A stretch of DNA of 64,000 nucleotides from Candidatus Bathyarchaeota archaeon (GTDB lineage: Archaea; Thermoproteota; Bathyarchaeia; Bathyarchaeales; Bathycorpusculaceae). A program made the position numbers and the translations under genes. The stretch lies in the NCBI GenBank assembly GCA_963720565.1, contig CAVRFW010000005.1, positions 160,001-224,000 on the forward strand. Reading direction: 5' to 3'. The notes beneath the pieces are model-generated. The model had not been told where the DNA came from. It made no database searches and saw only the letters and a program-made list of their open reading frames with translations. Of this stretch, positions 29,823-49,647 are shown one piece after another. Positions within the stretch are counted from its first letter, which is position 1, and each line of letters begins with the position of its first letter.

Positions 29823-29838
29823 CCGAAACGCTTTTATC
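29823..29838 (+). promoter_or_regulatory. BRE/TATA promoter of the aro leader and operon
   Basis: CCGAAACG-CTTTTATC, 37 nt upstream of the leader ATG; 13/16 identical to the ilv leader promoter. Confidence 0.65.
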
Positions 29839-29875
29839 AGCGAAATAACGTCTTTTGAGCAAGGTTCGAAGCTAC

Positions 29876-29959
29876 ATGCTAAATCGTGAAAGTCAAAAGC
29901 AGAGTCATCATCGAATGTTTTCTAGCTTCGGATACTACTTTTATTATTATTTTTGCTGA
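29876..29959 (+). CDS. Putative Phe/Tyr leader peptide (27 aa; alternative ATG at 29915 gives 14 aa)
   Basis: MLNRESQKQSHHRMFSSFGYYFYYYFC*: 5 Tyr and 4 Phe in the last 13 codons, directly upstream of the aromatic pathway operon. Confidence 0.8.
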   Translation: MLNRESQKQSHHRMFSSFGYYFYYYFC

Positions 29960-29998
29960 GCCCAGAACCAAAAAAATTTCATGTTAAGGTTTCTGGGC
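29960..29998 (+). promoter_or_regulatory. Stem-loop immediately after the aro leader stop codon
   Basis: GCCCAGAACC / GGTTTCTGGGC, 10 bp with one bulge. Confidence 0.7.
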
Positions 29999-30018
29999 GC
30001 AAGGATAGTTGATAATTA

Positions 30019-31251
30019 ATGGAAAACAAAAAAATTGTGGTCAAGTTCGGGGGTTCATCTCTAGCCGATCATGAACGCTTACTGAAAGCTGTAACTGCGG
30101 TGGTTAATGAATCGCAGAAAGGTACGCAGATCGCTGTTGTCGTGTCGGCTATGGGCAAGACAACCGACACCCTGCTCAGCACTGCAAGAAACACAAGCAA
30201 TGGGAAACTCCAAAAACAAGAACTGGACGATATTCTGAGTATGGGTGAACGGACAAGCGTTCGCATTTTCGCCGCTGCATTGCGAAATAACGGCGCGGAC
30301 AGCTGCTACTTTGATCCAATGGATGAAAATTGGCCAATAATAACTGACGCAGCATTCTCCAACGCTAACCCGTTGTTAATGGAATGTAAGCGTAGAATTC
30401 GGGAAAACGTTTTGCCAGTCGTTGAGAAAGGCATTATTCCTGTGATAGCTGGTTTCGTCGGCAAGACTCAGGAAGGAAAGATTACCACGCTTGGCAGAGG
30501 TGGAAGCGACACAACTGCATTCATTATAGCAGAAGCACTTCACGCCGACGAAGTTGTCCTGGTGACAGATGCTGACGGAATAATGTCTGGTGACCCAAAA
30601 ATCATCACAGGGGCGAAACGTCTTGAGGCGATAGATGTGAGCACTCTTGTGGGTCTGGCTGATTCTGGGGCAAAGTTCGTCCACATTAAAGCCCTCAAAC
30701 ACAAACCTCCAGCCATAAATGTACGGGTAATCAACAGTCAACATGGGAACCTGTCGGAGCAAGGCACAATAATAACAGGCGGATTGTCCACTGAACTTGA
30801 CGTAAGCATGGCTTATTCCTCGCAAGTGGCCGAGATAACAGTTGTCGGCAACAACATTTCCGAAAACCCCCAGATTGTTCAGGAAATGATGGAGAAAACC
30901 AAGAAGCACAACGCGTTGTTAGGCCTGTCCATGAACCAGAACAGCATTATACTCTACCTCGCGGAAGTAGAAGCCACAAACCAACTCGTCAACGACATTC
31001 ATCAAACAGTACTTAAAAACAAGGAGAATATAGCAATGGCAGTTAAGAAGAACCTCGCCTACTTCCGAATCAGCGGAGTCGGATTAGAAGAAACACATGG
31101 CATAATAGGAAAAATTAGCGAAACCTTACGCCTCAACAACATAAACATTTCCGGAATACTCACAATTACATCCAGCATACTCATATTCGTAGATTGGAGC
31201 GAAAAAGAGAAAGTGCTTAACCTCATCAGAAACGCGCTCAAAACCCACTAA
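30019..31251 (+). CDS. lysC: Aspartate kinase
   Basis: VVKFGGSS, VVVSAMGKTTD, SMGER, TLGRGGSDTTA, C-terminal ACT domains. Confidence 0.95.
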   Translation: MENKKIVVKFGGSSLADHERLLKAVTAVVNESQKGTQIAVVVSAMGKTTDTLLSTARNTSNGKLQKQELDDILSMGERTSVRIFAAALRNNGADSCYFDPMDENWPIITDAAFSNANPLLMECKRRIRENVLPVVEKGIIPVIAGFVGKTQEGKITTLGRGGSDTTAFIIAEALHADEVVLVTDADGIMSGDPKIITGAKRLEAIDVSTLVGLADSGAKFVHIKALKHKPPAINVRVINSQHGNLSEQGTIITGGLSTELDVSMAYSSQVAEITVVGNNISENPQIVQEMMEKTKKHNALLGLSMNQNSIILYLAEVEATNQLVNDIHQTVLKNKENIAMAVKKNLAYFRISGVGLEETHGIIGKISETLRLNNINISGILTITSSILIFVDWSEKEKVLNLIRNALKTH

Positions 31252-31259
31252 CAACGGAG

Positions 31260-32060
31260 ATGAAAAGAATGAACCAAGGAAAAACAAGAAGAATGAAACG
31301 CATAATGAACGAGGATCACTGCACGGTCATCGTTCCAATGGACCACGGGGTCACAATAGGACCCGTAAAAGGCATCGAAAACATGCAAACCATAGTCCAA
31401 CAACTTGTCAACGGCGGAGCCGACGCCATACTAGTCCACAAAGGCATCGCCAAACACGTCGACACAAAAGACTCAGGATTAATAGTTCAACTCTCTGCCT
31501 CCTCAAACTTGAGTTCAAATCCCAACACCAAAGTTCAAGTCTGCACCGTCAGAGAAGCCATCCGCCTGGGCGCAGATGCTGTGTCAGTACACATCAATGT
31601 TGGGGCGCAAGACGAAGACAAAATGCTTCAAACACTGGGTAAAGTTGCTAACGAATGTGACATCTACGGTATTCCACTCTTGGCAATGATGTATCCAAGA
31701 GGGCCGAAAATACAAGACGAACATGCCGTTGACGTGGTGGCGCATGCCGCTAGAATAGGTGCAGAACTTGGTGCAGACATTATCAAAGCAAACTACACAG
31801 GAAACATGGAAACATTCAGAAAGGTTGTCGAAAGCTGCCCAGTTCCAGTGGTTATTGCAGGCGGCCCCAAATCCAAGACAGCAAAAGAAATCCTGCAAAC
31901 GGCACACGAATCGCACAAGGCTGGAAGTGCTGGACTCTCGATTGGACGAAACGTGTTCCAACATGAAAACCCAACCCTGATGGTTAAAGCCCTCTGCGCT
32001 ATTGTTCATAGAGATGCTTCTGTTGAACAAGCTTTGAGAATCCTCGGTGAAAGCCATTGA
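31260..32060 (+). CDS. 2-amino-3,7-dideoxy-D-threo-hept-6-ulosonate (ADH) synthase, AroA'
   Basis: Class I aldolase: [28 protein letters not shown]; adjacent to DHQ synthase II. Confidence 0.92.
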
Positions 32061-33097
32061 AGGAACTCTGGCTTGAAATAGCTACAGGCGCCTCTCTTCC
32101 AGAAAAAGCAAGCCTCCTTAAACTTGCCTCTCAAAACTGCGACTTCATAATAGAAAACGAGACAGCGATTAGTCAACAAGGCAAAAGCAACATTACAATT
32201 CTAAAGGACTTAGACACCGCTGGAATCACCAAGCTGATGCGAGACGGAAAACAGTTTGCTCTTAGAATAACCATAGGCGGAAAAGAAGACGAGAACACAG
32301 CAGTCAAAGCAGCCGAACTACGAACAGACTACATCATAATCAACTGCCTTGATTGGCGTGTAATTCCCTTGGAAAACATAATTGCCCGAACACGCGGCAA
32401 AAGCAGACTAATCTCAGAAGCGACAAATGCGGAAGAAGCCAAACTCGTCTTGGAAACGCTGGAGTTAGGAACAGAAGGTGTCCTGCTTAAGACGTCCGAC
32501 CCTGAAGAGCTTACGAAAACTATCGCTACCGTCAAGAAGCAAAACCTCCAAGTTGAAATGACACCCGCCAAAATAACCACAATTAGGCAAATCAGCACTG
32601 GCGCACGAGTCTGCGTCGACACATGCGACATGATGGCACCTGGCGAAGGAATTTTGGTTGGTTGCCAATCAGCGGGTTTCTTTCTCGTAGAGGCAGAAGT
32701 GCACGAAAACCCCTACGTACAATCGCGGCCTTTCAGAGTCAATGCTGGCTCTCTATCCATGTATACTCTGGGACCTCAACAACAAACTCGTTATCTTTCA
32801 GAGCTGAAATCCGGTGACGAAGTCCTCATAGTCAACAGAAAAGGAGTTTTGAGGACAGCTAATGTCGGAAGAGCAAAAATCGAAATGAGGCCTCTAATTC
32901 TAATAGAAGCGGACGCTCAAGGTACAATGATAAAAACTATCCTACAAAACGCAGAAACCATTCGCTTGGTGACACCTGACAGTTCAAAGCCAGTGACAGA
33001 ATTGAAAGAAAGTGATGAAGTAATGGTGCACGTAGCTGCAAAAGGCGGCAGGCACTTCGGTATAGCTGTACCAGACGAAACGGTGATTGAAAGGTGA
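32057..33097 (+). CDS. 3-dehydroquinate synthase II, AroB'
   Basis: DWRVIPLEN, RVCVDT, RPFRVNAG, GRAKIEMRPL, LQNAETI, RHFG. Confidence 0.95.
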   Translation: MKELWLEIATGASLPEKASLLKLASQNCDFIIENETAISQQGKSNITILKDLDTAGITKLMRDGKQFALRITIGGKEDENTAVKAAELRTDYIIINCLDWRVIPLENIIARTRGKSRLISEATNAEEAKLVLETLELGTEGVLLKTSDPEELTKTIATVKKQNLQVEMTPAKITTIRQISTGARVCVDTCDMMAPGEGILVGCQSAGFFLVEAEVHENPYVQSRPFRVNAGSLSMYTLGPQQQTRYLSELKSGDEVLIVNRKGVLRTANVGRAKIEMRPLILIEADAQGTMIKTILQNAETIRLVTPDSSKPVTELKESDEVMVHVAAKGGRHFGIAVPDETVIER

Positions 33098-33780
33098 CAG
33101 CTAGAATAGCTGTTTCGATTCTACCCAAAACTATGCAAGAAGCACTGCAACTGATTGAAAAAGCAGAAAACGCACACGCTGACTTGATTGAAGTCAGACT
33201 TGACTGTCTAGGGAATCACATTGAACTTGCTGACTTGGCCGCTCACGGCAAAACACCGAAAATAGCCACAAACAGGATGACCAGCGTGCACGGAGTCTTG
33301 CCTGTGTCTGAGGCCGAACAGAGGAAAATGTTGCTTAATGCTGCTAAGAGCGGGTTTGAATTCGTGGATATAGACTTGTCTGGCACAAAGGTTAGAGAAC
33401 TGGTTAGCGAAGTAAAAGCGAGAGGAGCCAAATCCATAGTGTCCTTTCACGATTTCTCCGGCACCCCAAGCCTTTCAGAGTTGAAAAGAATCTTTCAAAA
33501 GGAAATTAACAGCAGAGCTGACGTTTGCAAAATCGTAACCACTGCAAAGCGTATGGAGGACAATTTGACAGTTCTGGATTTCACATCAAGTGCCTCTGCC
33601 TCGGGCAAGTCAAAAATAGTGTGTTTCGCCATGGACGAGTTGGGTAAGGTTTCTAGATTGTTGTCACCCTTGTTCGGCGGTTTCTTCACCTTTGCTTCGC
33701 TCGAGCACGGTAGCGAAACAGCTTCTGGACAGATGAGCATTCAAGAAATGAGAGCAGGTTACGAATTGTTGGGGCTATAG
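33094..33780 (+). CDS. aroD: Type I 3-dehydroquinate dehydratase
   Basis: IEVRLD, IATNR, VSFHDF, KIV, SRLL, TASGQ. Confidence 0.92.
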   Translation: MTARIAVSILPKTMQEALQLIEKAENAHADLIEVRLDCLGNHIELADLAAHGKTPKIATNRMTSVHGVLPVSEAEQRKMLLNAAKSGFEFVDIDLSGTKVRELVSEVKARGAKSIVSFHDFSGTPSLSELKRIFQKEINSRADVCKIVTTAKRMEDNLTVLDFTSSASASGKSKIVCFAMDELGKVSRLLSPLFGGFFTFASLEHGSETASGQMSIQEMRAGYELLGL

Positions 33781-33784
33781 TGAA

Positions 33785-34654
33785 ATGTCAATTTCAGGAA
33801 AAACAAGAGTGTGTGGGGTAATTGGCGACCCGATATCCCACACTCTAAGCCCGATAATCCATAATGCGGCTTTCAGCCACCTGAAACTCGATTTCGTCTA
33901 TTTAGCTTTCGATGTAAAACCATCTGAATTAGAAAATGCCCTGCATGGCATCAAGGGCTTACGTATTCACGGGTTGAATGTTACGATGCCGCATAAGAAA
34001 GCAGTCCTTCGCTTCTTAGATGAAGTCGATCAGACTGCGAAGTTTTTGGGTGTGGTCAACACAATCCTCAACAAGAAAGGGCGACTTTGCGGCTTCAACA
34101 CCGACGGCTTTGGTGCCTTGCGGGCTCTCAAAGAAAACAGCTTTGATTTATCAGGAAAAAAAGCGCTTCTGCTCGGAGCAGGTGGTGCAGCAAAAGCCAT
34201 AGCGTTGTCTCTTGCTGAAGAGGTTGAGGAGCTCACTCTCCTAAACAGGACCTTAGAAAAAGTAAGGGACCTGGAGGAGAAGTTGAATCAGCACTTTGGC
34301 GAGAGAGTCAGATCAGACACCCTTTCGCCAGGAAATGTCAAGAAGTATCTTCGAGCTTCAGATATTCTCGTCAATGCAACATCCGTAGGTATGTATCCCA
34401 ATCTTAGCCAAAGCATAGTGCCCCCGGAAATCTTAAGGCCTGATTTAGTCGTAATGGACATAGTCTACAATCCCGTTGAAACAGAACTTGTCGAAAACGC
34501 CAGAGCTGCAGGAGCTAGGGTAATCACTGGAGTGGAGATGCTCATTCATCAAGGTGCAGCATCTTTTGAAATCTGGACAGGTTGCCCAGCGCCAGTGGAT
34601 GTCATGCGAAAAGCAGCCCTATGCAAACTCACAAGTTTAGGTGAGAACAGATGA
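33785..34654 (+). CDS. aroE: Shikimate dehydrogenase
   Basis: GDPISHTLSP, NVTMPHK, NTDG, GAGGAA, NATSVGM, DIVYNP. Confidence 0.96.
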   Translation: MSISGKTRVCGVIGDPISHTLSPIIHNAAFSHLKLDFVYLAFDVKPSELENALHGIKGLRIHGLNVTMPHKKAVLRFLDEVDQTAKFLGVVNTILNKKGRLCGFNTDGFGALRALKENSFDLSGKKALLLGAGGAAKAIALSLAEEVEELTLLNRTLEKVRDLEEKLNQHFGERVRSDTLSPGNVKKYLRASDILVNATSVGMYPNLSQSIVPPEILRPDLVVMDIVYNPVETELVENARAAGARVITGVEMLIHQGAASFEIWTGCPAPVDVMRKAALCKLTSLGENR

Positions 34655-35520
34655 CTGGAAAAGCTGAGGCAATATCTCACGGTGCAGCAACTATCGTAAA
34701 TGCGATTGCTCTGGGGAAAGGCGCGGCTTTTGGGGTCGACCTTTGGACAAGGGCTGAAGTTAGATTAACCGAGGAGCCGCACATAATCACGGGAGAGATA
34801 ACTGAAGATCCTGGCGAAAGTACGACACTAATTGAAAGAACAGTAATGCGCGTTATAAGTCATTTCGGTCTGGAAAACCTTTTTGGAGCCAAGGTCAAAA
34901 CTCGATCCAACATACCCATTGCTAGAGGCTTGAAGAGCAGCAGTTCAGCAGCAAATGCCGTAGCCTTAGCGACTGTTGCAGCTTTGGGTAAAACGCTGGA
35001 TGACCTTGCTATAGTGAATCTGGGAGTGGATGCTGCTTTTGAAGCAAAAGTCACTGTTACAGGAGCTTTTGACGACGCTTGTGCTTCCTATTTCGGTGGC
35101 GCTGTTGTAACTGACAATCTGAAAAGAAAAATTGTTAAAAGCTCAACTATTCGCGATGATTTAACGGTTCTGTTTCATGTTCCATCCAGAAAAGCGTACA
35201 CAGGTAATTCTGACGTTGGCAGGCTGCAGACTGTTAAACCGCTCGTCAAGATAGCCTACAATGAAGCAAAGAACGGAAATTTCTGGGAGGCACTAACGCT
35301 TAATGGATTAATCTATTCAGCTACCTTGGGATATGACACTTCAGTAGCGTTAGATGCTCTAGCAGCTGGAGCATTGGCTGCCGGACTAAGCGGAAAAGGT
35401 CCTGCGATCACAGTCGTGGTTACCGAGGATAAAATTGATTCTGTCAGGGCAGCTCTGCAATGTCATGAAGGCGAAGTACTGAATACCCGATTGAACCGCG
35501 AGAAGGCGAAGGTACTCTAA
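34651..35520 (+). CDS. aroK: Archaeal (GHMP) shikimate kinase
   Basis: IPIARGLKSSS, TGAFDDACAS, GLSGKGP. Confidence 0.93.
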   Translation: MTGKAEAISHGAATIVNAIALGKGAAFGVDLWTRAEVRLTEEPHIITGEITEDPGESTTLIERTVMRVISHFGLENLFGAKVKTRSNIPIARGLKSSSSAANAVALATVAALGKTLDDLAIVNLGVDAAFEAKVTVTGAFDDACASYFGGAVVTDNLKRKIVKSSTIRDDLTVLFHVPSRKAYTGNSDVGRLQTVKPLVKIAYNEAKNGNFWEALTLNGLIYSATLGYDTSVALDALAAGALAAGLSGKGPAITVVVTEDKIDSVRAALQCHEGEVLNTRLNREKAKVL

Positions 35521-35522
35521 CT

Positions 35523-37911: not shown

Positions 37912-38169
37912 ATGGAAGACATAGCGAAATTGAGAAAAAGAATCGACAAAGTAGACGAGCAAATCTTGCATTCCTTGAGCGATAGAATAAAGATCTGTAG
38001 GTCAATTGGTTTGTTGAAGAAGAAACAGGGCTTATCTATTAAGGATCAGCAGAGAGAAACCGATCTTTGCGAGAAGATTAAGAAAAGGGCGGTTGAACTA
38101 AATCTAGACCCAGCGAGGGTAGAGGAAATATATCGGCAGATAGTTGAAATGTGCATTTCTGTTCAATGA
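37912..38169 (+). CDS. Chorismate mutase (AroQ type)
   Basis: LRKRIDKVD...R...IG..K......D..RE pattern. Confidence 0.9.
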   Translation: MEDIAKLRKRIDKVDEQILHSLSDRIKICRSIGLLKKKQGLSIKDQQRETDLCEKIKKRAVELNLDPARVEEIYRQIVEMCISVQ

Positions 38170-38182
38170 CCGGAATGGATGA

Positions 38183-39265
38183 TTGACAAGCATGCTGTAT
38201 GAAATAAACGAAAAAGCTCTCAAACTTGAGAGCGAAGGAAAAAAGATAATTCGGTTGAACATAGGCGACCCTGACCTGTCAACTTCGAACGAGATAATTG
38301 AGGCTGCTTACGAAGCGATGAAGAAAGGAAAAACCAAGTATTCTTCCAGTTACGGCGAGACGAAACTAAGGGAAAAACTTGCTGAAATTCATCATGTTTC
38401 ACCTGATCAGGTTGTGATTACTCCAGGCTCGAAATGGGGCGTTTTCGCTACCATGTATCTAGCGTTGCGGGACGGCGGAAACGTCATCGTTCCCACGCCT
38501 TACTGGACAGCATACGAGTTGACAGCTAAGAGTTTAGGTGCCAAGACTAAACTGTTGAGGACCGAGTTTGATTCCCAATGGCAAATTGACTTGGAAAAGC
38601 TTGAGGATTTGATTGACGGGGAAACGCGGATGATAATTTTGAATAACCCCAACAATCCAACCAGCAAAGTCATGGCCCCCGAAATTTTGGATGGAATAGT
38701 CCAAATTGCCAACGACAAAGGTATCCCGATTCTTTCGGACGAAGTCTACGGCACCATAAGTTTTGTGAAGACTAAAAGCATTCTTGATTACGAAGGCAAC
38801 CACATTCTTTCAAACGGGTTCTCCAAGACGTTCACAATGACGGGTTGGCGACTCGGCTATATCATAGCCAGCAAAGAACTGGTCGACAAAATAACTAGAC
38901 TTAATCAAATCACAATTAGCAATGTTCCTGTCTTTATCCAAGAAGCAGGCTTGAAAGCTTTAGAGCTTCAGAAGCAAATCTCAACGAAAATCAGGGAAGA
39001 ATACCGGGAACGCGCGAAAATTGCGAGCAACATCATGTCTAAGACTGCTCTGGAATTTACAGAGCCCGAGGCTCCGTTCTATGTCTTCCCGAGAAAACGT
39101 GGTTTAGACTCAGAAAGATTCGTCTTGGACTTGTTAGATAAAGGTGTTGCAGTCGCCCCGGGTACGTCGTTTGGCGATTACAGAGAGCACTTCCGCATTT
39201 CTTTAACCGCACCGCGAGAAATGATTAAAACAGGTTTGAACAGGATCTGCGAGGCCCTGGAATGA
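38183..39265 (+). CDS. Class I/II PLP aminotransferase (probably aromatic)
   Basis: NNPNNPT, SDEVY, FSKTFTMTGWRLG; located within the aro operon. Confidence 0.9.
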   Translation: MTSMLYEINEKALKLESEGKKIIRLNIGDPDLSTSNEIIEAAYEAMKKGKTKYSSSYGETKLREKLAEIHHVSPDQVVITPGSKWGVFATMYLALRDGGNVIVPTPYWTAYELTAKSLGAKTKLLRTEFDSQWQIDLEKLEDLIDGETRMIILNNPNNPTSKVMAPEILDGIVQIANDKGIPILSDEVYGTISFVKTKSILDYEGNHILSNGFSKTFTMTGWRLGYIIASKELVDKITRLNQITISNVPVFIQEAGLKALELQKQISTKIREEYRERAKIASNIMSKTALEFTEPEAPFYVFPRKRGLDSERFVLDLLDKGVAVAPGTSFGDYREHFRISLTAPREMIKTGLNRICEALE

Positions 39266-40135
39266 AAATTGCGATTCTAGGCGCGGGGAAAATGGGTGTT
39301 TGGTTCGCCAGGTTCTTCCAAGAAGAAGGATATTCCGTGGTTTTGGCAGATAGAAACGAAAAAAAACTGGAGAGGTTGAAGGAGGAACTTGCTGTCCAAA
39401 CCGCCGGCTTTGTTGAAGCTGTTCAAAAAGCCGACTGGATTTTAATCTGCGTGTCCATGAACGCTTTTGAGAACTGTTGCCAAAACAATCGGCCCCCACA
39501 TAGTAAAGGGGCAAATTGTCATGGATATTTGCTCCGTCAAAGAAGAACCCGTTAAAATCATGCACAAACACATCGAAAAAGGCTTGGTTTTGGGGACTCA
39601 CCCTGTATTTGGTCCGGGCAGCAGCGGCGTCAAAAACAAGGCTTTCATTCTTACTCCAACAACAAGGCAAGAGGAAGAATTTGCCAAAGACTTCAAAATC
39701 TGGCTGGAAGCAAAAAAAGCACGTGTTTTCGTAGTCACTCCTCACAAGCATGACGAATTGATGTCGGTTGTTCTCGGTTTTCCACATTTCGCAGGATTAG
39801 TTGCGTGCGACACTCTGCTCGAAATGAAAGATTACCCTCAAACTAAGGATGTCGCTGGCACCACTTATCGAATGTTGTTCACTTTGGCGGAAGCGACTGC
39901 AATGGAAAACCCCGAGCTGTTTTCAAGTTTACAGTTTAGTCTTCCAGAGATGGAGAAGATAGAAAAATTGTTCATTGAAAAGGCGAACGAATGGTTAAAC
40001 CTGATAAAGCAGAAAGATTCTGGGGCAATTGCAGCCAAGATGAACGATTTGAAGTCAAAGCTTGCTAGAGCAAGTCCCAGCTACGAAAAGTCGTACGAGA
40101 CTATGTATAAGATGCTGGCGGCAGCTGAAAAATAG
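39262..40135 (+). CDS. tyrA: Prephenate dehydrogenase, frameshifted at about 39472
   Basis: GAGKMG Rossmann motif; DICSVK, HPVFGP, HDELMS after an apparent extra A. Confidence 0.9.
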
Positions 40136-40144
40136 CTGTTCAGA

Positions 40145-40999
40145 TTAAGCGTTTGGCGCCTTTGGATATGAACCCAAGATTTTGAGAAATGCCCCGTTCT
40201 TTTGAAGCGCTTTCAATGCTGCAGCACAGTTTTCTTCTGTTCTATGTCCTTCAAAATCCAAGTAGAAATTGTATTCCCACGCTTTCTGCTTCGTCGGTCT
40301 AGATTCGATTTTTGTGAGGTTTATGTTTCGCTTCGCAAATTCGCTCAAGGCTTGATATAGCGAACCCGGAGTGTGGGCAGCAGCAAAGATTATCGATGTC
40401 TTGTCTTTTCCTGTAATCGGAGAGTCTTCTTTTGACAATACAAAGAACCTAGTATGGTTTGTCGGGTTATCCTCAATTTCCCTGGATAGGATCTGCATTC
40501 CGTATATTTCAGCAGCTTTTGCACTGGCTACTGCTGCAGCGTTCCTTAGACCTTTCTCTTTTAACATTTTTACGCTGCCTGCAGTGTCGTAAGTCGGTAC
40601 AAGTTCGCTTCCTAGTCGCTCCAGAAAAATGCGGCATTGAGCCAAAGCTTGCGGGTGCGAATAGACCGTTTTTATGTCGGCTAATGTTACGCCGGGGTTT
40701 GCGATGAGGCAGTGGCTGACTCGGAGGATGATTTCTCCGCAGACTTTAAGGTCGTGTGTAAGGAAAAGGTCGTAGGTTTGATTGACGCTGCCTTCGAGGC
40801 TGTTCTCTATTGGAACTACGCCGAAGCGGGTTTCTTGTTTGCCAACGTTTTCAAAGACTTCTGTAAGATCTCGGCACGGTTTAACTTCTACCTTTTTTCC
40901 GAAAAAGGCGTAGACTGCGCTCTCGCTGAAAGCGCCTCTTTCTCCTTGGAAGGCCACTTTCACTTTTTGTTTCCCTGCTTTCGGTTTTTTATTAAGCAT
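40145..40999 (-). CDS. pheA: Prephenate dehydratase
   Basis: GAFS, PIENSLEG, SHPQALAQC, TRF, NLTKIESRP, LGSYP. Confidence 0.96.
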   Translation of the reverse strand: MLNKKPKAGKQKVKVAFQGERGAFSESAVYAFFGKKVEVKPCRDLTEVFENVGKQETRFGVVPIENSLEGSVNQTYDLFLTHDLKVCGEIILRVSHCLIANPGVTLADIKTVYSHPQALAQCRIFLERLGSELVPTYDTAGSVKMLKEKGLRNAAAVASAKAAEIYGMQILSREIEDNPTNHTRFFVLSKEDSPITGKDKTSIIFAAAHTPGSLYQALSEFAKRNINLTKIESRPTKQKAWEYNFYLDFEGHRTEENCAAALKALQKNGAFLKILGSYPKAPNA

Positions 41000-42483
41000 T
41001 TGTTTATGCCATTAATCATTGCTTCGACGCTTGCCATAACGATGTCTTCTCTAGCTGCGCGTGCTGATACTATGTGTCCTTTCTCATCTTCAACTTTTAT
41101 GACGACTTCAGCCACAGCGTTTGAGCCACCTGTTATGGCTTCAAGACGATATTCTTTGAGCCTAATTTTTTCCAGATTATTGGTGAGTTTCTGTATGGCT
41201 TTTAACACTGCGTCCACAGGTCCTACTCCAGTCTCAGCCGCAATGTACTCTTTTCCGTCTAGGAGTAGTCTGACTGATGCTGTTGGAATTACCTTGATTC
41301 CTGTTACAACAGCCAAGTCGGCTAGGTCAACTATTTTCTCTTCTGAGATTACTTCGCCCATGACGGCTGAGGTCAAAGCGAGCAGGTCGGCATCAGTAAC
41401 CATCTTGCCTTTGTCGCCCAGCTCTTTGACTCTTTGAACGATTTCTTTTAGTTGCTCTTCCGTGGGGTGTATTTCGATTTCTTCAAGCTCGGCTTTGATG
41501 CCGCGTGTTCCAGCTAGCTTTCCAGCGACGAGTTTTCTTGTGCGCCCCACCATTTCCGGTTTTATGGGTTCAAAAGTTAAGGGTTTTACTGTTACCCCTC
41601 GGGTGTGAATGCCGGACTCGTGGGCGAAGGCGTTTTCGCCGACAATCGCCTTGTTTGCTTGTACAGATATTCCGGTTAGTGTTGCAACCAGTCGCGAGGT
41701 GCTATACAGCAGACGCGAATTAACTCTAGTCTTAAGCTTGTAGATCATGTGTAGAGCCATGACTACTTCTTCCAGTGAGGCGTTTCCCGCTCTTTCGCCT
41801 AAACCGTTAATCGTAGCGTGTATCTGAGCTGCACCTGCTTCAACAGCTGCAAGAGAATTCGCAACTGCCATTCCGAAATCATCGTGACAGTGAACGCTGA
41901 TTGGAACAGTCACGACTGTTTTGAGGTCTTCAACGAGTTTTGCCATGGAGCGCGGAATCATTATGCCTACCGTGTCAGGAACATTCAATCTATCCATTCC
42001 CGCATTCTCTGCTGCTTGGCATACCTTCTTTAGAAACGCTAAGTCAGAACGCGTTGCATCCATCGGAGAGAACTCGCATGTTAATCCGTGCTTCTTCACG
42101 TATTCAATAGAGTCTACAGCTGCGGCGACAACTTGTTCAGGCGTTAGGTTAACAGCGTATTTCATTTGCACAGGCGACGTCGGGACAAACACGTGAACTG
42201 CGTCAACGTCGCACTCTATCGCAGCATCAATGTCGTTTCTGTTGGCACGAGCTAAACCGCAGATTTCGGCGTCTAAATCAGCATTTGCTATTTCCTTCAT
42301 TACTTTTTTCTCGCCTTCGGAAGATGCTGGAAAACCAGCTTCGATCGAGTCAACGCCCAACAGGCTGAGTTGGCGCGCGATCTCGAGTTTGTCGTCAAAC
42401 GTGAGTGAAGCGCCTGGAGTCTGCTCGCCGTCCCTTAGGGTTGTGTCAAAAATGCGTATGTAATCGGCGTTTTTTGATGTCAT
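40960..42483 (-). CDS. leuA: 2-isopropylmalate synthase (LeuA/CimA family)
   Basis: DTTLRDGEQTPG, HCHDDFG, GERAGN, HESGIH, regulatory domain GVGPVDA; lies within the leu operon. Confidence 0.85.
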   Translation of the reverse strand: MTSKNADYIRIFDTTLRDGEQTPGASLTFDDKLEIARQLSLLGVDSIEAGFPASSEGEKKVMKEIANADLDAEICGLARANRNDIDAAIECDVDAVHVFVPTSPVQMKYAVNLTPEQVVAAAVDSIEYVKKHGLTCEFSPMDATRSDLAFLKKVCQAAENAGMDRLNVPDTVGIMIPRSMAKLVEDLKTVVTVPISVHCHDDFGMAVANSLAAVEAGAAQIHATINGLGERAGNASLEEVVMALHMIYKLKTRVNSRLLYSTSRLVATLTGISVQANKAIVGENAFAHESGIHTRGVTVKPLTFEPIKPEMVGRTRKLVAGKLAGTRGIKAELEEIEIHPTEEQLKEIVQRVKELGDKGKMVTDADLLALTSAVMGEVISEEKIVDLADLAVVTGIKVIPTASVRLLLDGKEYIAAETGVGPVDAVLKAIQKLTNNLEKIRLKEYRLEAITGGSNAVAEVVIKVEDEKGHIVSARAAREDIVMASVEAMINGINKCLIKNRKQGNKK

Positions 42484-42501
42484 GATACCAGCACCGCTTG
42501 T

Positions 42502-43527
42502 TTAGGTAATTGCGTCCGCGATGGCTTCTGCCATGCCTGTGGTTGTTCGGTTTCCGCCCAGGTCTGGGATTGTGTTGCCGTTTTGCAGTGTCTTAACTAC
42601 AGCGTTTTCTATGGCAGTAGCTGCTTTGATGCATTCTTGGTCTTTGTATGTTTCACCTAGCCATTCTAGCATCATTCTTGCAGCTAGTATTTCTGATAGG
42701 GGGTTTGCTGTTTGCTTGCCTGCTCTATTAGGTGCTGAACCGTGAATTGGCTCGAAGAGGGCGAATTTGTCTCCTACGTTTGCTCCTGGGGCCATGCCTA
42801 AACCGCCGACTAGCTGTGCGGCTTCGTCGGATAAGATGTCGCCAAACATGTTGCAGGTGCATAGCACGTCGAATTCTTGGGGTTCTTTTATGAGGCGCAT
42901 TGCTGCGGCGTCAACGTATAGTTCGTTGAAGGCTATGTCAGGGTATTCCTTTGCTTTTTCTCGGCACACGCTTGCGAACAAGCCATCGGTTACTCGCATA
43001 ACGTTAGCTTTGTGGATAGCTGTGACTTTTTTCTTGCCGTTTCGTAGTCTCGCGGTTTCGAAGGCTTTCTTGGCTATCCTTTCACAGTTTCCTCTAGTTA
43101 TTACTCTCATGCAAATGGTTGTGTCTTTTCCTATGGTGAACTCGTGACCCATGTAGACGTCTTCGGTGTTTTCTCTAACGAACATCATGTCTATGTCAGG
43201 TCGCGCTGCTGCAGCTGCTGGATAAGTCTTTATCGGTCTCAGGTTTGCGTAGAGATCAAACATCAGCCTCAGCTTTACGATTACGTCGGCAGCGGTTTCT
43301 CCGACTGGACCTTTCAAGCATACGTGTGAGGCTTTGATTTTTTCAACGCTGTCTTGAGGAAGTGCTACTCCTCGGCGCTGCAAACAGGCGTCTCCTGCTT
43401 CTGCCTCAATCATTCTGAGTTTCAATCCGAATTTTGATTGTGCTGATTTTAACACTTTCAGAGTGGCTTCGGTAAGCTCGGGTCCTATTCCGTCGCCTGG
43501 GATTACGGATATTTTGTATTCTGTCAT
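42502..43527 (-). CDS. leuB: 3-isopropylmalate dehydrogenase
   Basis: GDGIGPE, NLRP, RENTE, NMFGDILSD, EPIHGSAP. Confidence 0.92.
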   Translation of the reverse strand: MTEYKISVIPGDGIGPELTEATLKVLKSAQSKFGLKLRMIEAEAGDACLQRRGVALPQDSVEKIKASHVCLKGPVGETAADVIVKLRLMFDLYANLRPIKTYPAAAAARPDIDMMFVRENTEDVYMGHEFTIGKDTTICMRVITRGNCERIAKKAFETARLRNGKKKVTAIHKANVMRVTDGLFASVCREKAKEYPDIAFNELYVDAAAMRLIKEPQEFDVLCTCNMFGDILSDEAAQLVGGLGMAPGANVGDKFALFEPIHGSAPNRAGKQTANPLSEILAARMMLEWLGETYKDQECIKAATAIENAVVKTLQNGNTIPDLGGNRTTTGMAEAIADAIT

Positions 43528-44021
43528 TTCTTGTTCAACCTTTTGCGCAAGTTTTCTATTAGTCCTCCGTCCACAAGTATTTCTACTATGAAGGAAGGCA
43601 GTTTCGTAACGTGAAAACTCTGTTTCTTTGAGATGTTTTCTACTTTACCAGTCTCAAAGTCTACCTCGAGTTTGTCACCGTTATCTGTAGCTGCTGAGAT
43701 TCCTTTGCACTCGATTACGGGTAAGCCAATGTTTATGGCGTTGCGGAAGAAAATCCGCGCGAAAGACTCGGCCAAGACGCATTGAACACCAGCGTACTTT
43801 AGTGCTAGGGGCGCCTGTTCTCGGCTGCTGCCGCATCCGAAGTTTTTTCCGCCCACTACAATTACGCCCTTTCTTGCTTTGTCTGGAAATCCGGGGTCTA
43901 AGCCTTCCATTGCATGTTTCGCCAAGTCTTTGGGGTCGATTAGGACTAGGTATTTTCCTGGCAGAATCACGTCTGTGTCCACGTTGTCTCCGAATTTGAT
44001 TGCTGTTCCGGTCGCCTTCAT
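43524..44021 (-). CDS. leuD: 3-isopropylmalate dehydratase small subunit
   Basis: DNVDTDVI, NFGCGSSREQA, SFARIFFRN; ATGA overlap with leuC. Confidence 0.94.
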   Translation of the reverse strand: MKATGTAIKFGDNVDTDVILPGKYLVLIDPKDLAKHAMEGLDPGFPDKARKGVIVVGGKNFGCGSSREQAPLALKYAGVQCVLAESFARIFFRNAINIGLPVIECKGISAATDNGDKLEVDFETGKVENISKKQSFHVTKLPSFIVEILVDGGLIENLRKRLNKK

Positions 44022-45292
44022 TTTTTGTATGCCTCCAGTTCCTGTGGGTCGGTTATTCTGCCGGTTAGTGCTGAAGCTGCTACTGTTGCTGGAGAAGCCA
44101 AGTAGACATTTGCTTCGGTGCTGCCCATTCTTCCTATGAAGTTGCGGTTGGAAGTGCTTACACATGTTTCGCCTTGTGCTAGTAAGCCTATGTGTCCTCC
44201 AAGGCAGGGTCCGCATGTTGATCCGCAGACTAACGCGTCCGCGTCGGTGAAGATTTCGATCAATCCTTCTTTTAACGCTTGAGCGTATGTTTCTTTGGAA
44301 GCAGGAATCACGAGTGCTCTTACGCCGTCTTTGACTTTTTTACCTTTCAGAATTTCCGCTGCCAACCTCAGGTCTTCGATTCTCCCGTTGGTGCAGGAAC
44401 CGATGAAAGCTTGATCTACCTGGACGTTGCCTAATTCAGAAACAGGTTTCACATTGTCAACTGAGGATGGACATGCGACCTGGGAGCCTAAACCTGAGAC
44501 ATCTACGTCGATGATTTTCTCGTAGGTTGCATCAGGATCGCTTTCTAAGGATTCAAACGGCTTCAAGGTTTTCTCTGTTCTTCCTTCAAGGAACCTCTTT
44601 GTTGTTTCGTCCGGTTCTACAATGCCGTTTTTGGCGCCCATTTCAACTGTCATGTTGCACAGGGTCATTCTGCCCGCCATGCTCATCTCTTGAATTATTG
44701 GCCCGCAGAACTCGACGCTCTTGTACGTTGCACCATCTGCGCCTATCTTGCCGATTAGGTGCAGGATCAAGTCTTTGGGTGTTACGTATTTCTTGAACTC
44801 TCCTGTTGCATTTATCTTGATTGATTCTGGTACTTTTAGCCAAATTTTGCCAGTGGCAAAGACGCCTGCCGCTTCGGTTGAGCCTATGCCCGTGGCGAAG
44901 GCGCCGAAGGCGCCGTAAGTGCAGGTGTGCGAGTCAGCGCCAACGATTACTGTGCCAGGTAGGACATGCCCTTTCTCAGGCATTACCTGGTGGCAGATTC
45001 CGCCCTTGCCCACATCATAGATCTGAATGTTCTGTTCTTTGGCGAAGTGGCGCATCATCTTGTGCAGTTCCGCAGCTTTGACTGATTCAGCTGGGACCTG
45101 ATGATCCAGAACTACCACTGCTTTTTGGCTGTTCCATATTTTCTTTAAGCCTATTTTTTTGAAGGCTTCAACCGCTAAGGGTCCAGTTAAGTCGTGGACC
45201 ATTAGCATGTCTACGTTGGCGTCAACGATATCTCCAGGGCTTACACTGCTTTTTCTGGATGCGTTGGCCAAGATTTTTTCTGTTATGTTCAT
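44018..45292 (-). CDS. leuC: 3-isopropylmalate dehydratase large subunit
   Basis: DSHTCT, IGSCTNGR, CGPCLG, SNRNFIGRMG. Confidence 0.95.
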   Translation of the reverse strand: MNITEKILANASRKSSVSPGDIVDANVDMLMVHDLTGPLAVEAFKKIGLKKIWNSQKAVVVLDHQVPAESVKAAELHKMMRHFAKEQNIQIYDVGKGGICHQVMPEKGHVLPGTVIVGADSHTCTYGAFGAFATGIGSTEAAGVFATGKIWLKVPESIKINATGEFKKYVTPKDLILHLIGKIGADGATYKSVEFCGPIIQEMSMAGRMTLCNMTVEMGAKNGIVEPDETTKRFLEGRTEKTLKPFESLESDPDATYEKIIDVDVSGLGSQVACPSSVDNVKPVSELGNVQVDQAFIGSCTNGRIEDLRLAAEILKGKKVKDGVRALVIPASKETYAQALKEGLIEIFTDADALVCGSTCGPCLGGHIGLLAQGETCVSTSNRNFIGRMGSTEANVYLASPATVAASALTGRITDPQELEAYKK

Positions 45293-45399
45293 GGTTTCGC
45301 CTCTTTTTCAATTAGCATGAAGACGTTCCTCGATGAATACCGCTATTGGAGCAAATCCATCTGGCTGTGAGTTAAGGATTTCCGTTAGGTTTGCGTTTT

Positions 45400-45912
45400 T
45401 TACTCGTCGATTCTGATTGACCTTATCCCTCGTGAAAGGGCTGTCAGTCCTGTTCGGGCGAGTTCCAGTATGCCGTAGCTTTTCATTAGGTTGAGAAAAG
45501 CGTCTATTTTGTCCGGAGTTCCAGTGATTTCTATGGTTAATGTTTCCGGTGAAACATCAATCACGTGACCTCGGAACACTTCTACACAGTTGATTATGTC
45601 TGATCGGGTTTTCGTGTCTGGAACATTTACTTTGATCAGCGCTAGTTCTCTTGTGACGATACTTTCTGACTCCAGACTTGTGACTTTTACGACGTCTATT
45701 AGTTTGTTCATTTGCTTGACTATTTGTTCCAGGGTTTTGTCATCGCCGCTTACGGTTATGGTCATTCTGGTTATGCCCTTCTGTTCCGTGTGTCCGACCG
45801 TGATGCTTTCGATGTTAAATCCCCTGCGCCGGAACATGTTAGCTACGCTGTGCAATACTCCTGGCTTGTTTTCAACTAGTGCAGCAATGACTTTGGTTTT
45901 TCCGTTTTCCAT
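45400..45912 (-). CDS. ilvH: Acetolactate synthase small subunit
   Basis: VENKPGVL...FRRRGFNIESI, KLIDVVKV, ELARTG. Confidence 0.95.
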   Translation of the reverse strand: MENGKTKVIAALVENKPGVLHSVANMFRRRGFNIESITVGHTEQKGITRMTITVSGDDKTLEQIVKQMNKLIDVVKVTSLESESIVTRELALIKVNVPDTKTRSDIINCVEVFRGHVIDVSPETLTIEITGTPDKIDAFLNLMKSYGILELARTGLTALSRGIRSIRIDE

Positions 45913-47624
45913 TAATAGTCACCTACCTGCTGGTTTAAGCCACAACCCGGAGGAACCATGGGCACTACGTTTTCTTCTGAGGAGATTGGCACGTCGATGA
46001 CTGTTGTGACCTTGCTCTTCAGTGCTTTTTCAACGGCTTTTTGAAATTCTGCGACTGAGCCTACGCGGAATCCTTGAGCTCCGTACGCTTCTGCGAGTTT
46101 GACCAAGTCTGGATATGCACCAAGTTTAACTGCCATATAGCGGCTCTTGTAGAACATGCGTTGCCACTGGGCAACCATGCCTAAGACGCCGTTGTTGAGA
46201 ACGATAACGGTAACGGGTATGTCTTCGATTACGCTACACGCGAGTTCCTGTTCGGTCATAATGAAGCTGCCGTCGCCAGCTATGTCCACAACGTGTCGGT
46301 TGGGGCAGGCTGTTTTGGCGCCGATTGCTGCTGGGAAACCGAAGCCCATGGTGCCTAAGCCGCCGCTGCTTATGAACGTACGTGGTTTTATCGCTTTGAA
46401 GTAGAGCCCAGACCACATTTGGTTTTGTCCGACTTCTGTTGTGACTATGGTATCTTCTGGTAGGAGCTTCCGCAGCGCTTGCAGTAGTGGTTTAGGTTTC
46501 AGTTCTTTTGCTTCTCCGTTTTGCAGTGGATTGAGTAGTTGACGCGCTTCTTTGACGCGGCTAACCCAGGGTGAATCAGTCTTCTTTTTAGCTTGTTGGA
46601 TTAGGCGTTCGTAGATTGCGCTTAGGGCTTTTTTTGCGTCTGCAACTATGGGTATGTCTACTTCTATGTTTTTGCCGATTTCTGCGGCGTCGATGTCGAC
46701 GTGAATTTTTTTAGCTTCGGGGCAGAATGTGTCAGTATTACCTGTGGCGCGGTCTGAGAAACGTGTTCCAACTGCAAGCATCACGTCAGCTTCCAAAAGC
46801 AGTTTGTTGGCGAGGGGATTTCCATGCATGCCGATATTGCCAATGCTGAGGGGATGGATTTCTGGAAAGCTGCCCTTTCCCATGAAGGTGGTAGCAACGG
46901 GCGCCAGTAGTAGCTCGGCTACAGTTAGAAGTTCGTCTGATGCGTTGGCAGTAATAGTTCCGCCACCCGCGAGGATTACTGGTCTTTCTGCTTCGGCGAG
47001 TAGCTCAGAGGCTTTACGTATTTGAAGCGGATGTGGGTTGCCTGGGGGTTTGTAACCTCGGATGTCGATTTTATCCGAGAACTCGATTTGACCTACTTCA
47101 GCCTGAATGTTTTTTGGGAAGTCGATGAGGACAGGTCCCGGTCTGCCGGTGGTAGCGATGTAGAATGCAGAGTTAACTGTTAGCGGTATCTCGGATGGTG
47201 TGCGTATCTGATAGTTGTACTTTGTTATTGGGGTGGTGATGCCTATGATGTCGGCTTCCTGAAAAGCGTCTCTGCCGATCATGTATGTTGTATTGACGCC
47301 GCTGGATGGGACTTGCCCCGTTAACGCGATGACTGGCGAACTGTCCATATAGGCGTTTGCTATGCCAGTCACTAGGTTTGTTGCACCTGGACCGCTTGTG
47401 GCGAAGCAGACGCCGGCTCTACCGCTTGCGCGTGCATAGCCGTCAGCTGCGTGTGCAGCTCCCTGTTCGTGTCTGGCTAGAATGTGTCTAATACGCGGAT
47501 GATTGCATAGGGCATCGTATACGGGTAGGATTGCTCCCCCTAAGATGCCGAATACTTCTTTGACGCCTTGTCGTTCAAGTGAATCTAGTAGCGCATTTGC
47601 GCCTGTCATTTTTGTTGTTGTCAT
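45912..47624 (-). CDS. ilvB: Acetolactate synthase large subunit
   Basis: RHEQGAAHAADGYAR, TSGPGATN, AFQEAD, SGGLGTMG, GDGSF, LGMVAQWQ. Confidence 0.96.
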   Translation of the reverse strand: MTTTKMTGANALLDSLERQGVKEVFGILGGAILPVYDALCNHPRIRHILARHEQGAAHAADGYARASGRAGVCFATSGPGATNLVTGIANAYMDSSPVIALTGQVPSSGVNTTYMIGRDAFQEADIIGITTPITKYNYQIRTPSEIPLTVNSAFYIATTGRPGPVLIDFPKNIQAEVGQIEFSDKIDIRGYKPPGNPHPLQIRKASELLAEAERPVILAGGGTITANASDELLTVAELLLAPVATTFMGKGSFPEIHPLSIGNIGMHGNPLANKLLLEADVMLAVGTRFSDRATGNTDTFCPEAKKIHVDIDAAEIGKNIEVDIPIVADAKKALSAIYERLIQQAKKKTDSPWVSRVKEARQLLNPLQNGEAKELKPKPLLQALRKLLPEDTIVTTEVGQNQMWSGLYFKAIKPRTFISSGGLGTMGFGFPAAIGAKTACPNRHVVDIAGDGSFIMTEQELACSVIEDIPVTVIVLNNGVLGMVAQWQRMFYKSRYMAVKLGAYPDLVKLAEAYGAQGFRVGSVAEFQKAVEKALKSKVTTVIDVPISSEENVVPMVPPGCGLNQQVGDY

Positions 47625-47718
47625 TCTTTTTGCTCCTTAGGTCAAGAAAGTGACGGTGTGCATTTCGTGGAACTTTATTGTTCGAGAAGTTGAATTTAAT
47701 GGTTTCTCGGAGGCAGTT

Positions 47719-47790
47719 TTAGAAGGTTCCCTGGGTGATTTGGAGAATGAGTACCCGACGATCCCAACTATTGAGGTGGCGATCCCTCAT
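47719..47790 (-). CDS. Putative Ile/Leu/Val leader peptide (23 aa)
   Basis: GGAGG-AAAATTGAA-ATG; MRDRHLNSWDRRVLILQITQGTF*; stop lies 94 nt upstream of ilvB. Confidence 0.7.
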   Translation of the reverse strand: MRDRHLNSWDRRVLILQITQGTF

Positions 47791-47846
47791 TTCAATTTTC
47801 CTCCGCGAAACTCCACGTACCGTGAAAAACCTAACATTCCACTCCA

Positions 47847-47862
47847 GATAAAAACATTACGG
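47847..47862 (-). promoter_or_regulatory. BRE/TATA promoter of the ilv leader and operon
   Basis: Minus strand CCGTAATG-TTTTTATC, 56 nt upstream of the leader ATG. Confidence 0.62.
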
Positions 47863-49593: not shown

Positions 49594-49647
49594 TTTTCTG
49601 ATCCGTCCGTACTATGACACCATAAATTTTATATTTAAGCATGGTGC

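What the first reader, a model, noticed from the sequence alone, without database searches (positions are those of the whole stretch)
29823..47862. Candidate archaeal ribosome-mediated attenuation system shared by two amino acid operons
Seen: the two convergent operons each begin with the same layout. It is a near-identical BRE/TATA promoter (CCGAAACGCTTTTATC vs CCGTAATGTTTTTATC, 13/16 identical), then a 23-27 codon ORF carrying a cluster of the operon's own product codons, then a stem-loop close behind the stop, then the first enzyme gene 59 or 94 nt later. The codon clusters match their pathways independently (Phe/Tyr for aro, Val/Leu/Ile for ilv-leu). Established: this is the layout of bacterial attenuators (pheL, ilv, leuL, thrL, trpL), and archaeal transcription and translation are coupled. 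To my knowledge leader-peptide attenuation is not established in archaea. Inference: neither leader has a hairpin + U-tract terminator, so the output would have to differ from the bacterial one, for example aCPSF1/FttA-dependent termination or masking of the downstream SD.
Basis: partly seen in the sequence, partly recalled or inferred. Interest (0 to 1): 0.93.

Follow-up and report, generated by a model that had tools for sequence, protein, structure and literature searches.

The report
Amino-acid-sensing frameshift switches in archaea
In this group of uncultured archaea, tiny upstream genes appear to make the ribosome slip forward one base when one particular amino acid runs short, which switches on the genes that make it; this looks like a previously undescribed way of sensing amino-acid supply, and it sits next to a more conventional stalling leader on the aromatic operon.

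Summary
Both upstream ORFs are real and conserved across Bathyarchaeia, but they are two different devices. The aro leader (29876-29959) is a stalling type, with a Phe/Tyr run plus hairpin (59 of 62 orthologous loci). The ilvB leader (47790-47719) is not a Val/Leu/Ile run. It carries prfB-like cassettes: internal Shine-Dalgarno, 3 nt, P-site codon, one cognate codon. Its +1 frame stays open to the ilvB start in 58 of 60 leaders (6.6 expected). The same cassette, with its cognate codon matching the pathway, heads the window's cimA-type gene (49677-49697, Ile), hisG (two cassettes in series, His) and trpE (Trp). 24 of 33 cimA-type genes have no in-frame start, so they need a +1 shift. Best reading: a hungry codon triggers a +1 frameshift that switches on the pathway, by fusion or by translational coupling. 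This is inferred from comparative sequence; no shift has been measured. Ten literature searches found no report. The scan earlier noted the aro leader on another genome and leuA frameshifts in other archaea (mostly unchecked notes).

The parts
29823..29838 (+). BRE/TATA promoter of the lysC-aro operon
   Evidence: kept at a similar distance from the uORF start in relatives
29863..29873 (+). 5' arm just before the uORF start; pairs with the Ser-Phe-Gly codons (29924-29933) and would close the leader's initiation region
   Evidence: 5-bp core paired in 35-39 of 39 core-group leaders, with few two-sided changes
29876..29959 (+). aro leader uORF, 27 codons, ending in a Phe/Tyr run (29927-29953) that also holds two U4 tracts
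29960..29998 (+). hairpin behind the stop; without a ribosome it extends so that the last Tyr/Phe codons (29948-29956) pair with the lysC SD-like region (29999-30007)
   Evidence: (z < -2 in 51 of 60)
30019..31251 (+). aspartate kinase, first gene of the aro operon (followed by aroA', aroB' and the rest)
47847..47862 (-). BRE/TATA promoter of the ilvB-ilvN-leuCD-leuB-leuA-pheA operon
47800..47805 (-). SD of the ilv leader uORF; can pair with 47713-47708 downstream of the uORF stop
47719..47790 (-). ilv leader uORF, 23 codons, ATG/GTG start alternating among relatives
47773..47788 (-). Leu cassette: internal SD GAGGGAT (47788-47782), 3 nt, P-site CAC, control codon CTC (47775-47773)
47752..47766 (-). 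Val cassette: internal SD TGGGAT, 3 nt, P-site CGG, control codon GTA (47754-47752)
47637..47774 (-). +1 bridge frame: open from the Leu codon through the leader to a TAA inside the ilvB SD, 12 nt before the ilvB ATG
45912..47624 (-). ilvB, biosynthetic acetolactate synthase large subunit
   Evidence: TIGR00118 over cut-off
49677..49697 (+). Ile cassette uORF MGYCFI*, outside the finding's coordinates: internal SD GGGGTAT, slip site TTT-A|TC, then stop; TATA 49627-49635, SD-like AGTGAT 49666-49671
49693..51219 (+). cimA-type (isopropylmalate/citramalate synthase family) body in the +1 frame of the cassette; DTTLRDG motif at 49726-49746
   Evidence: the CimA rather than LeuA identity is inferred

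Best explanation
Two devices. (A) Frameshift cassettes (ilvB leader, cimA-type gene; outside the window hisG, trpE, leuC, valS, leuS). A ribosome starts on a short uORF. An internal SD (GAGG-GAU, GGGGUAU, AGGCGAU or GGUGAUC) pairs with the 16S tail while a chosen codon is in the P site and one codon for the pathway's amino acid is in the A site. With charged tRNA plentiful the codon is read and the ribosome stops a few codons later (OFF). When the amino acid is scarce the A site stays empty and the ribosome slips +1 (ON). Outputs: in cimA-type genes and trpE the +1 frame is the enzyme, so the product is a fusion. In ilvB, leuC, valS and leuS the +1 frame is a non-conserved bridge that ends at the next start codon, giving translational coupling and unfolding of the leader. 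Cassettes in one frame give OR logic (Leu, Val or Ile for ilvB); two cassettes 19 nt apart in successive frames give AND logic (hisG). Shown: the anatomy, conservation, frame statistics and codon matching. Inferred: the shift itself, its starvation dependence and reinitiation. (B) The aro leader is a stalling leader: pausing on the Phe/Tyr run frees the lysC SD and/or hides U4 tracts from aCPSF1/FttA. Its output is unresolved; about 0.7 that it is stall-based.
For: +1 frame reaches within 25 nt of the ilvB start in 58 of 60 cassette-type leaders; 0 frame 1, +2 frame 5, shuffle expectation 6.6. Its stop lies within 13 nt of the start in 46 of 58; coupling needs such short distances (PMC10666635 abstract). 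Control: 1 of 15 ILV-run leaders has this open frame. hisG: in 23 of 23 double-cassette leaders the +1 frame closes early and the +2 frame reaches hisG; 5 of 5 single-cassette leaders reach it in +1. cimA-type: cassette in 33 of 35 loci, 24 with no in-frame ATG/GTG/TTG before the catalytic motif. trpE: cassette in 27 of 28, 9 without an in-frame start. Codon-blind test: codon 6 is I/L/V in 51 of 58 pattern hits at ilvB, His in 19 of 20 at hisG, Trp in 22 of 23 at trpE, Ile in 31 of 36 at cimA-type genes; genome background 21%, 2.3%, 1.3%, 4.9%. Internal SD pairs with the genome's own 16S tail: mean -6.7 against -2.3 kcal/mol. The P-site codon covaries with the A-site codon so that the tRNA can re-pair: NGG before GUA, NNY before CUY/CAY, NUU before UGG; at least 2 pairs in 82% against 40%. 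An independent DNA contig spans the cimA-type break with no gap. Aro: SD unpaired 0.32 free, 0.59 with a ribosome mid-run, 0.45 at the stop; FttA present.
Against: No shift, protein or regulated transcript was measured. The window's own Leu site (CAC-CUC) re-pairs poorly, 1 of 3, as do 29 CAC/UAC cases. In this genome the cimA-type frame has upstream TTG/GTG codons (49648, 49654), and one DNA contig reads ATG at 49654; they lie at or before the start site I estimate from the TATA box. 19 of 28 trpE loci have some in-frame start before the motif used. 7 of 58 bridges end more than 20 nt from the start. Genomes are kin, so counts overstate independence. 16 ilvB leaders were picked by eye, and 10 of 30 hisG loci were found through the pattern. 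The SD figure is partly circular for ilvB and hisG (trpE -7.0 and cimA -6.3 were not filtered on GG). Folding predictions are noisy.
Confidence: 0.82

Rival explanations
1. One reading: both leaders are stall-type attenuators, in which pausing on a cognate codon cluster unmasks the downstream SD or blocks FttA.
For: Fits the aro leader and the 15 ILV-run + hairpin ilvB leaders of other Bathyarchaeia orders. aCPSF1 binds two U4 tracts (PMC8716108 passages).
Against: For the cassette-type ilvB leader the cluster is not conserved and a stalled ribosome does not open the SD. The model explains neither the open +1 bridge, the serial hisG frames nor the start-less cimA-type genes.
Confidence: 0.07
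2. No slip: the +1 frame is entered by fresh initiation at the conserved AUU/AUC that the cassette contains in that frame, and the uORF only modulates it.
For: ATH occurs at that place in most cassettes. An unchecked scan note reports AUC/AUA starts for thaumarchaeal cimA/leuA (e1-5157002).
Against: 29 of 168 cassettes lack ATH there, including genes with no other start: cimA-type L102 and trpE L408, L413. A ribosome paused on the hungry codon would cover that codon, giving the wrong sign. It does not explain the P-site/A-site covariation.
Confidence: 0.05
3. The shift is constitutive, at a set ratio that merely lowers expression, or arises from RNA-polymerase slippage.
For: No starvation data are available. 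Short T runs occur at the cimA-type and trpE sites.
Against: The A-site codon matches the pathway product for Ile, Leu, Val, His and Trp. The runs are only 2-4 nt and are absent at CAC-CTC.
Confidence: 0.04
4. The conserved motif is an RNA element bound by a protein or by uncharged tRNA (T-box-like), and the frames are incidental.
For: The constraint is at nucleotide level: Asp is GAT in 67 cases and GAC in none in GG-led modules. The Leu module can form a small GAGG/CCUC hairpin.
Against: No Rfam match. Pairing with the 16S tail explains the nucleotide constraint. Frame statistics and start-less genes require translation.
Confidence: 0.02

Closest known systems
Bacterial prfB (release factor 2) autoregulatory +1 frameshift
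   Same: SD-type stimulator just upstream, a slow A site, a +1 slip near the 5' end, product in the new frame (CTT_TGA_C with upstream SD; PMC3711429 passages). The trpE sites CUU-U share the prfB P-site codon. The 3-nt spacing in prfB is recalled.
   Different: The A site is a sense codon for the pathway's amino acid, not a stop. It occurs in archaea, on many genes. The SD is tuned to the GAUCACC part of the archaeal 16S tail. It is also used as a leader that couples to the next gene, singly, in parallel or in series.
Ketolide-induced frameshifting in the ermC leader
   Same: Shifted ribosomes run on through the intergenic spacer, unfold it and activate the next gene (PMC5009743 passages).
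   Different: The trigger there is an antibiotic, largely independent of sequence; here it is a programmed cassette with a cognate codon.
E. coli pheL/ilv/leu/his/trp leader-peptide attenuators
   Same: The aro leader and the ILV-run ilvB leaders have a cognate-codon run and a hairpin behind the stop.
   Different: No conserved U-tract terminator (11 of 60), no Rfam match. The pheL frameshift is described as incidental. The cassette leaders use single codons and frame change.
T-box regulons of Firmicutes (recalled)
   Same: One module, re-specified by a single codon, controls biosynthetic operons and aminoacyl-tRNA synthetases.
   Different: Here the module is 15-18 nt and is read by the ribosome; no T-box RNA.
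Saccharolobus fucA1 -1 frameshift; Methanococcales Mg-chelatase
   Same: Frameshifting in archaea.
   Different: Both are -1 and have no known sensing role. fucA1 was the only demonstrated archaeal case in the 2021 review (PMC8211752).
Methanothermobacter trpY minigene (recalled; one search found no paper on it)
   Same: As I recall, a tiny Trp-containing uORF proposed to control translation in an archaeon.
   Different: It controls a repressor gene; I recall no frameshift. I could not read it.

Membership tests
Classical leader-peptide attenuator | uORF with a run of cognate codons | tested here: met
   aro leader only: 59 of 62 loci. Not met for the cassette-type ilvB leader.
Classical leader-peptide attenuator | Intrinsic terminator (hairpin followed by U tract) | tested here: not met
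   U4 next to the aro hairpin in 11 of 60 leaders; none in the window.
Classical leader-peptide attenuator | Mutually exclusive structures switched by ribosome position | tested here: inconclusive
   aro SD unpaired 0.32 to 0.59; ilv no change; few two-sided changes in the aro helices.
Classical leader-peptide attenuator | Match to an Rfam leader family | tested here: not met
prfB-type +1 frameshift | Internal SD closely upstream of the P-site codon | tested here: met
   90% of 210 cassettes at or below -4 kcal/mol against 17% of background; 16S tail.
prfB-type +1 frameshift | P-site tRNA can re-pair in the +1 frame | tested here: inconclusive
   At least 2 pairs in 82% against 40%; poor for CAC/UAC-CUC, including the window's Leu site.
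prfB-type +1 frameshift | Gene body continues in the +1 frame without its own start | tested here: met
   cimA-type 24 of 33; trpE 9 of 28.
prfB-type +1 frameshift | Stop codon in the A site; gene encodes RF2 | tested here: not met
   The A site is Ile, Leu, Val, His or Trp. It works like prfB but is not a member.
prfB-type +1 frameshift | Measured, signal-dependent frameshifting | not testable with these tools
   Needs a reporter, ribosome profiling or mass spectrometry.
Termination-reinitiation coupling | Upstream stop overlaps or lies very near the next start | tested here: met
   Within 13 nt in 46 of 58 ilvB bridges; AUGA overlap in 4 of 5 leuC leaders; window 12 nt.
T-box riboswitch | Stem I, specifier loop and T-box antiterminator | tested here: not met
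   No Rfam hit.

The most novel reading that the evidence does not exclude
Bathyarchaeia run a modular amino-acid regulon on programmed +1 frameshifting at hungry codons. One 15-18 nt cassette, re-specified by a single codon, senses Ile, Leu, Val, His or Trp and controls biosynthetic enzymes and tRNA synthetases, by fusion or by coupling, with OR and AND wiring. Run-and-hairpin leader peptides exist beside it in the same class.
Probability: 0.8. Interest if true: 0.96.

Novelty: categorically new. Interest (0 to 1): 0.94.

Why it matters
The 2016 recoding review states that no example was known of hungry-codon frameshifting producing a functional starvation protein, and the 2021 archaeal review lists a single demonstrated case, a -1 shift. 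This would add regulatory +1 frameshifting to archaea, supply a third logic of amino-acid sensing beside attenuators and T-boxes, and show how archaea can do without intrinsic terminators. It is directly testable with a cassette of under 25 nt in existing archaeal reporter hosts. It also implies that cimA-type and trpE genes of this class cannot be called correctly by standard gene finders.

Tried and rejected
A loose pattern search gave mostly chance hits. Frameshift model for the aro leader: no frame is preferred (0/+1/+2 open in 28/34/24 of 60, 17.8 expected per frame; either shifted frame in 46 of 60), so I do not claim it, though a minor role is not excluded. Shared promoter as a regulator site: rejected. 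Cassettes for Thr, Lys, Arg, Pro, Cys or Met: none convincing in this genome; its leuS and proS have none, valS gave no clear orthologue, and trpE was not found in the 88.8% complete assembly. The Ile-cassette pattern outside the class gave 8 hits among 216 genomes, none at a cimA-type gene; this means not found with this pattern, not absent. A candidate before proS (L330) has a non-cognate codon and was dropped. Sequencing runs were contigs only. One RNA-library contig spans 47486-47799 but cannot show strand, start or level and may be DNA. CimA versus LeuA could not be settled by NCBIfam or PDB; no ilvA over cut-off was found, which fits a citramalate route. The paralogous-lysC control (0 of 20) is weak, because those genes are operon-internal. 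The Devaraj and Fredrick paper on SD spacing was not held; I saw only its title. I opened no supplementary files; the sORF lists in PMC11456600 and PMC10117724 could bear on novelty.
Full report
1. Observation. The window is G000:C5:160001-224000; named relatives are mostly labelled Bathyarchaeia. The two operons are lysC-aroA'-aroB'... (+) and ilvB-ilvN-leuC-leuD-leuB-leuA-pheA (-). Both uORFs, both promoters and the 59/94-nt spacings are as stated. The aro uORF ranks first for Phe/Tyr density among 4038 uORFs in this genome. Rfam finds nothing at either leader.

2. Aro leader. A uORF with at least 5 aromatic codons in 10 precedes 59 of the 62 orthologous lysC loci examined, a subset of those found. 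The misses are L173 (4, clearly homologous), L182 (cut by the contig end) and L183 (short). The N-terminal part is free and the aromatic end is kept. A hairpin follows the stop (mean -19 kcal/mol, z < -2 in 51 of 60), but U4 follows it in only 11. In the core group of 39 a second helix joins the bases before the uORF start to the Ser-Phe codons; both helices are well kept, with few two-sided changes. Modelled SD accessibility is 0.32 free, 0.31 with the ribosome on the first control codon, 0.59 mid-run and 0.45 at the stop. The run itself holds U4 tracts: two in the window, at least one in 53 of 60. aCPSF1 binds two U4 tracts (PMC8716108, passages) and is encoded here. No shifted frame is preferred. 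Reading: a stall-type leader acting through SD masking and/or FttA. An earlier scan note reached a similar view on another genome (e1-5300639).

3. ilvB leader. Of 86 ilvB loci, 43 carry an MRD-type uORF found by pattern, 16 related ones were picked by eye, 15 carry a classical ILV run plus hairpin, 5 have a cimA-type gene 2 nt upstream, 1 is truncated and 6 showed nothing; one more locus came. The conserved unit is NGG-NAU-NGY-NNN-[Leu/Val/Ile], fixed at nucleotide level. L034 has exactly one Leu, one Val and one Ile after its start, each ending a unit. From the first control codon the +1 frame runs to within 25 nt of the ilvB start in 58 of 60, against 1 (frame 0), 5 (+2) and 6.6 expected from shuffles; the two misses are the doubtful picks L085 and L105. 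The bridge peptide is not conserved. Its stop lies within 13 nt of the start in 46 of 58. In the window it ends at 47639-47637, inside the SD. Only 1 of 15 ILV-run leaders has such a frame. A merely stalled ribosome does not open the SD.

4. The same cassette elsewhere. cimA-type gene, in the window at 49677-49697: MGYCFI* with the enzyme in the +1 frame. 33 of 35 loci have it, the 0 frame stops 1-5 codons later, 24 have no in-frame start before the catalytic motif, and 29 have none downstream of the estimated transcription start. An independent DNA contig shows no gap there. hisG, G000:C9 near 204347: of 30 long-type loci, 23 have two His cassettes 19 nt apart, with the +1 frame closing early and the +2 frame reaching hisG in all 23; 5 have one cassette whose +1 frame reaches hisG; 2 were not detected. 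Among the 20 loci not found through the pattern, 18 have cassettes. trpE: 27 of 28 loci, always NUU-UGG, enzyme in +1; the 28th shows the same layout with a TTG start. Also Leu cassettes before leuC (5), leuS (1) and a leuA-like gene (1), and Val cassettes before valS (2) (gene names for loci outside the window other than hisG and trpE are my reading of their N-termini). With a pattern blind to codons 4-6, codon 6 matches the pathway at 51/58, 19/20, 22/23 and 31/36 hits, and the pattern is absent from 54 of 54 aro leaders.

5. Mechanism. The genome's 16S tail is GGATCACCTCCT. The cassette pairs with it at -6.7 against -2.3 kcal/mol for coding background, ending 3 nt before the P-site codon. 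The P-site codon changes with the control codon in the way +1 re-pairing predicts, except CAC/UAC-CUC. This is the prfB layout (PMC3711429, passages) with a sense codon as the slow A site. Archaeal ribosomes do pause at codons whose tRNA is uncharged (PMC7261190, passages), and reinitiation in Haloferax needs very short distances (PMC10666635, abstract). The shift, its dependence on starvation and the reinitiation are inferred, not shown. Kin are not independent, but the ilvB cassette leaders span 14 coded families and the bridge sequences differ freely.

6. Literature. Ten searches found no report of leader-peptide attenuation or amino-acid-sensing frameshifting in archaea. Passages read: PMC5009743 (ermC ketolide shift; pheL incidental; no functional hungry-codon example known), PMC8211752 (one archaeal -1 case), PMC11456600 and PMC10117724 (archaeal uORFs seen, no attenuator described), PMC11616081 (ribosome/FttA exclusion is a hypothesis), PMC13675443 and PMC8116511 (no occurrence of 'attenuat'). 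PMC6728339 was seen as a listing only. Most subscription papers are not held and supplements were not opened. A Methanothermobacter trpY minigene is recalled, not read.

7. Earlier scan notes. I wrote down the frameshift reading before seeing notes on leuA +1 shifts in a methanogen and in Asgard archaea; the Asgard note was partly overturned on later check. I did not test them. If they hold, the device extends well beyond this class. My own pattern search outside the class found no cimA-type hit.

8. Verdict. The feature is real. Interest 0.94.

Noticed in passing
window 39262-39555 and 39467-40135 (+): The prephenate dehydrogenase-like gene appears as two overlapping ORFs; assembly error or real frame break.
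   Followed up: no
window 40145-40999 (-): pheA sits at the end of the ilv-leu operon, facing the aro operon, so it would be under the branched-chain leader unless it has its own promoter.
   Followed up: no
L100, L108-L110, L112, L113, L115-L120, L123, L124, L131: Other Bathyarchaeia orders use a classical ILV-run leader plus hairpin before ilvB, the same layout as the aro leader.
   Followed up: partly
L101: Hybrid ilvB leader: an Ile cassette at the start, an ILV run at the end, and an open +1 bridge.
   Followed up: partly
L346 (G204:C1 near 498045-498157): Three tandem cassettes (Val, Leu, Ile) whose +1 frames end at the same stop overlapping the ilvB start.
   Followed up: partly
L265 (G002:C8 near 86375): The +2 frame of the his leader is in frame with hisG, giving a fusion rather than coupling.
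   Followed up: no
window 49654 and 47656: A related strain has G>A at 49654, making an in-frame ATG upstream of the cimA-type cassette; RNA-library contigs of two runs lack 2 nt at 47656 in the bridge.
   Followed up: no
L045, L077-L079, L081, L306, L309 (genus g36): Here the cimA-type gene with its Ile cassette heads the operon directly before ilvB, and leuC has its own Leu cassette.
   Followed up: partly
G000:C3:79763-81173; L002: A second aspartate kinase of this genome appears as two ORFs, and lysC in L002 has several frame breaks; probably assembly errors.
   Followed up: no
L166/L241 (G081:C3 33400-34990): The aro and his operons are divergent with their two leaders back to back.
   Followed up: no
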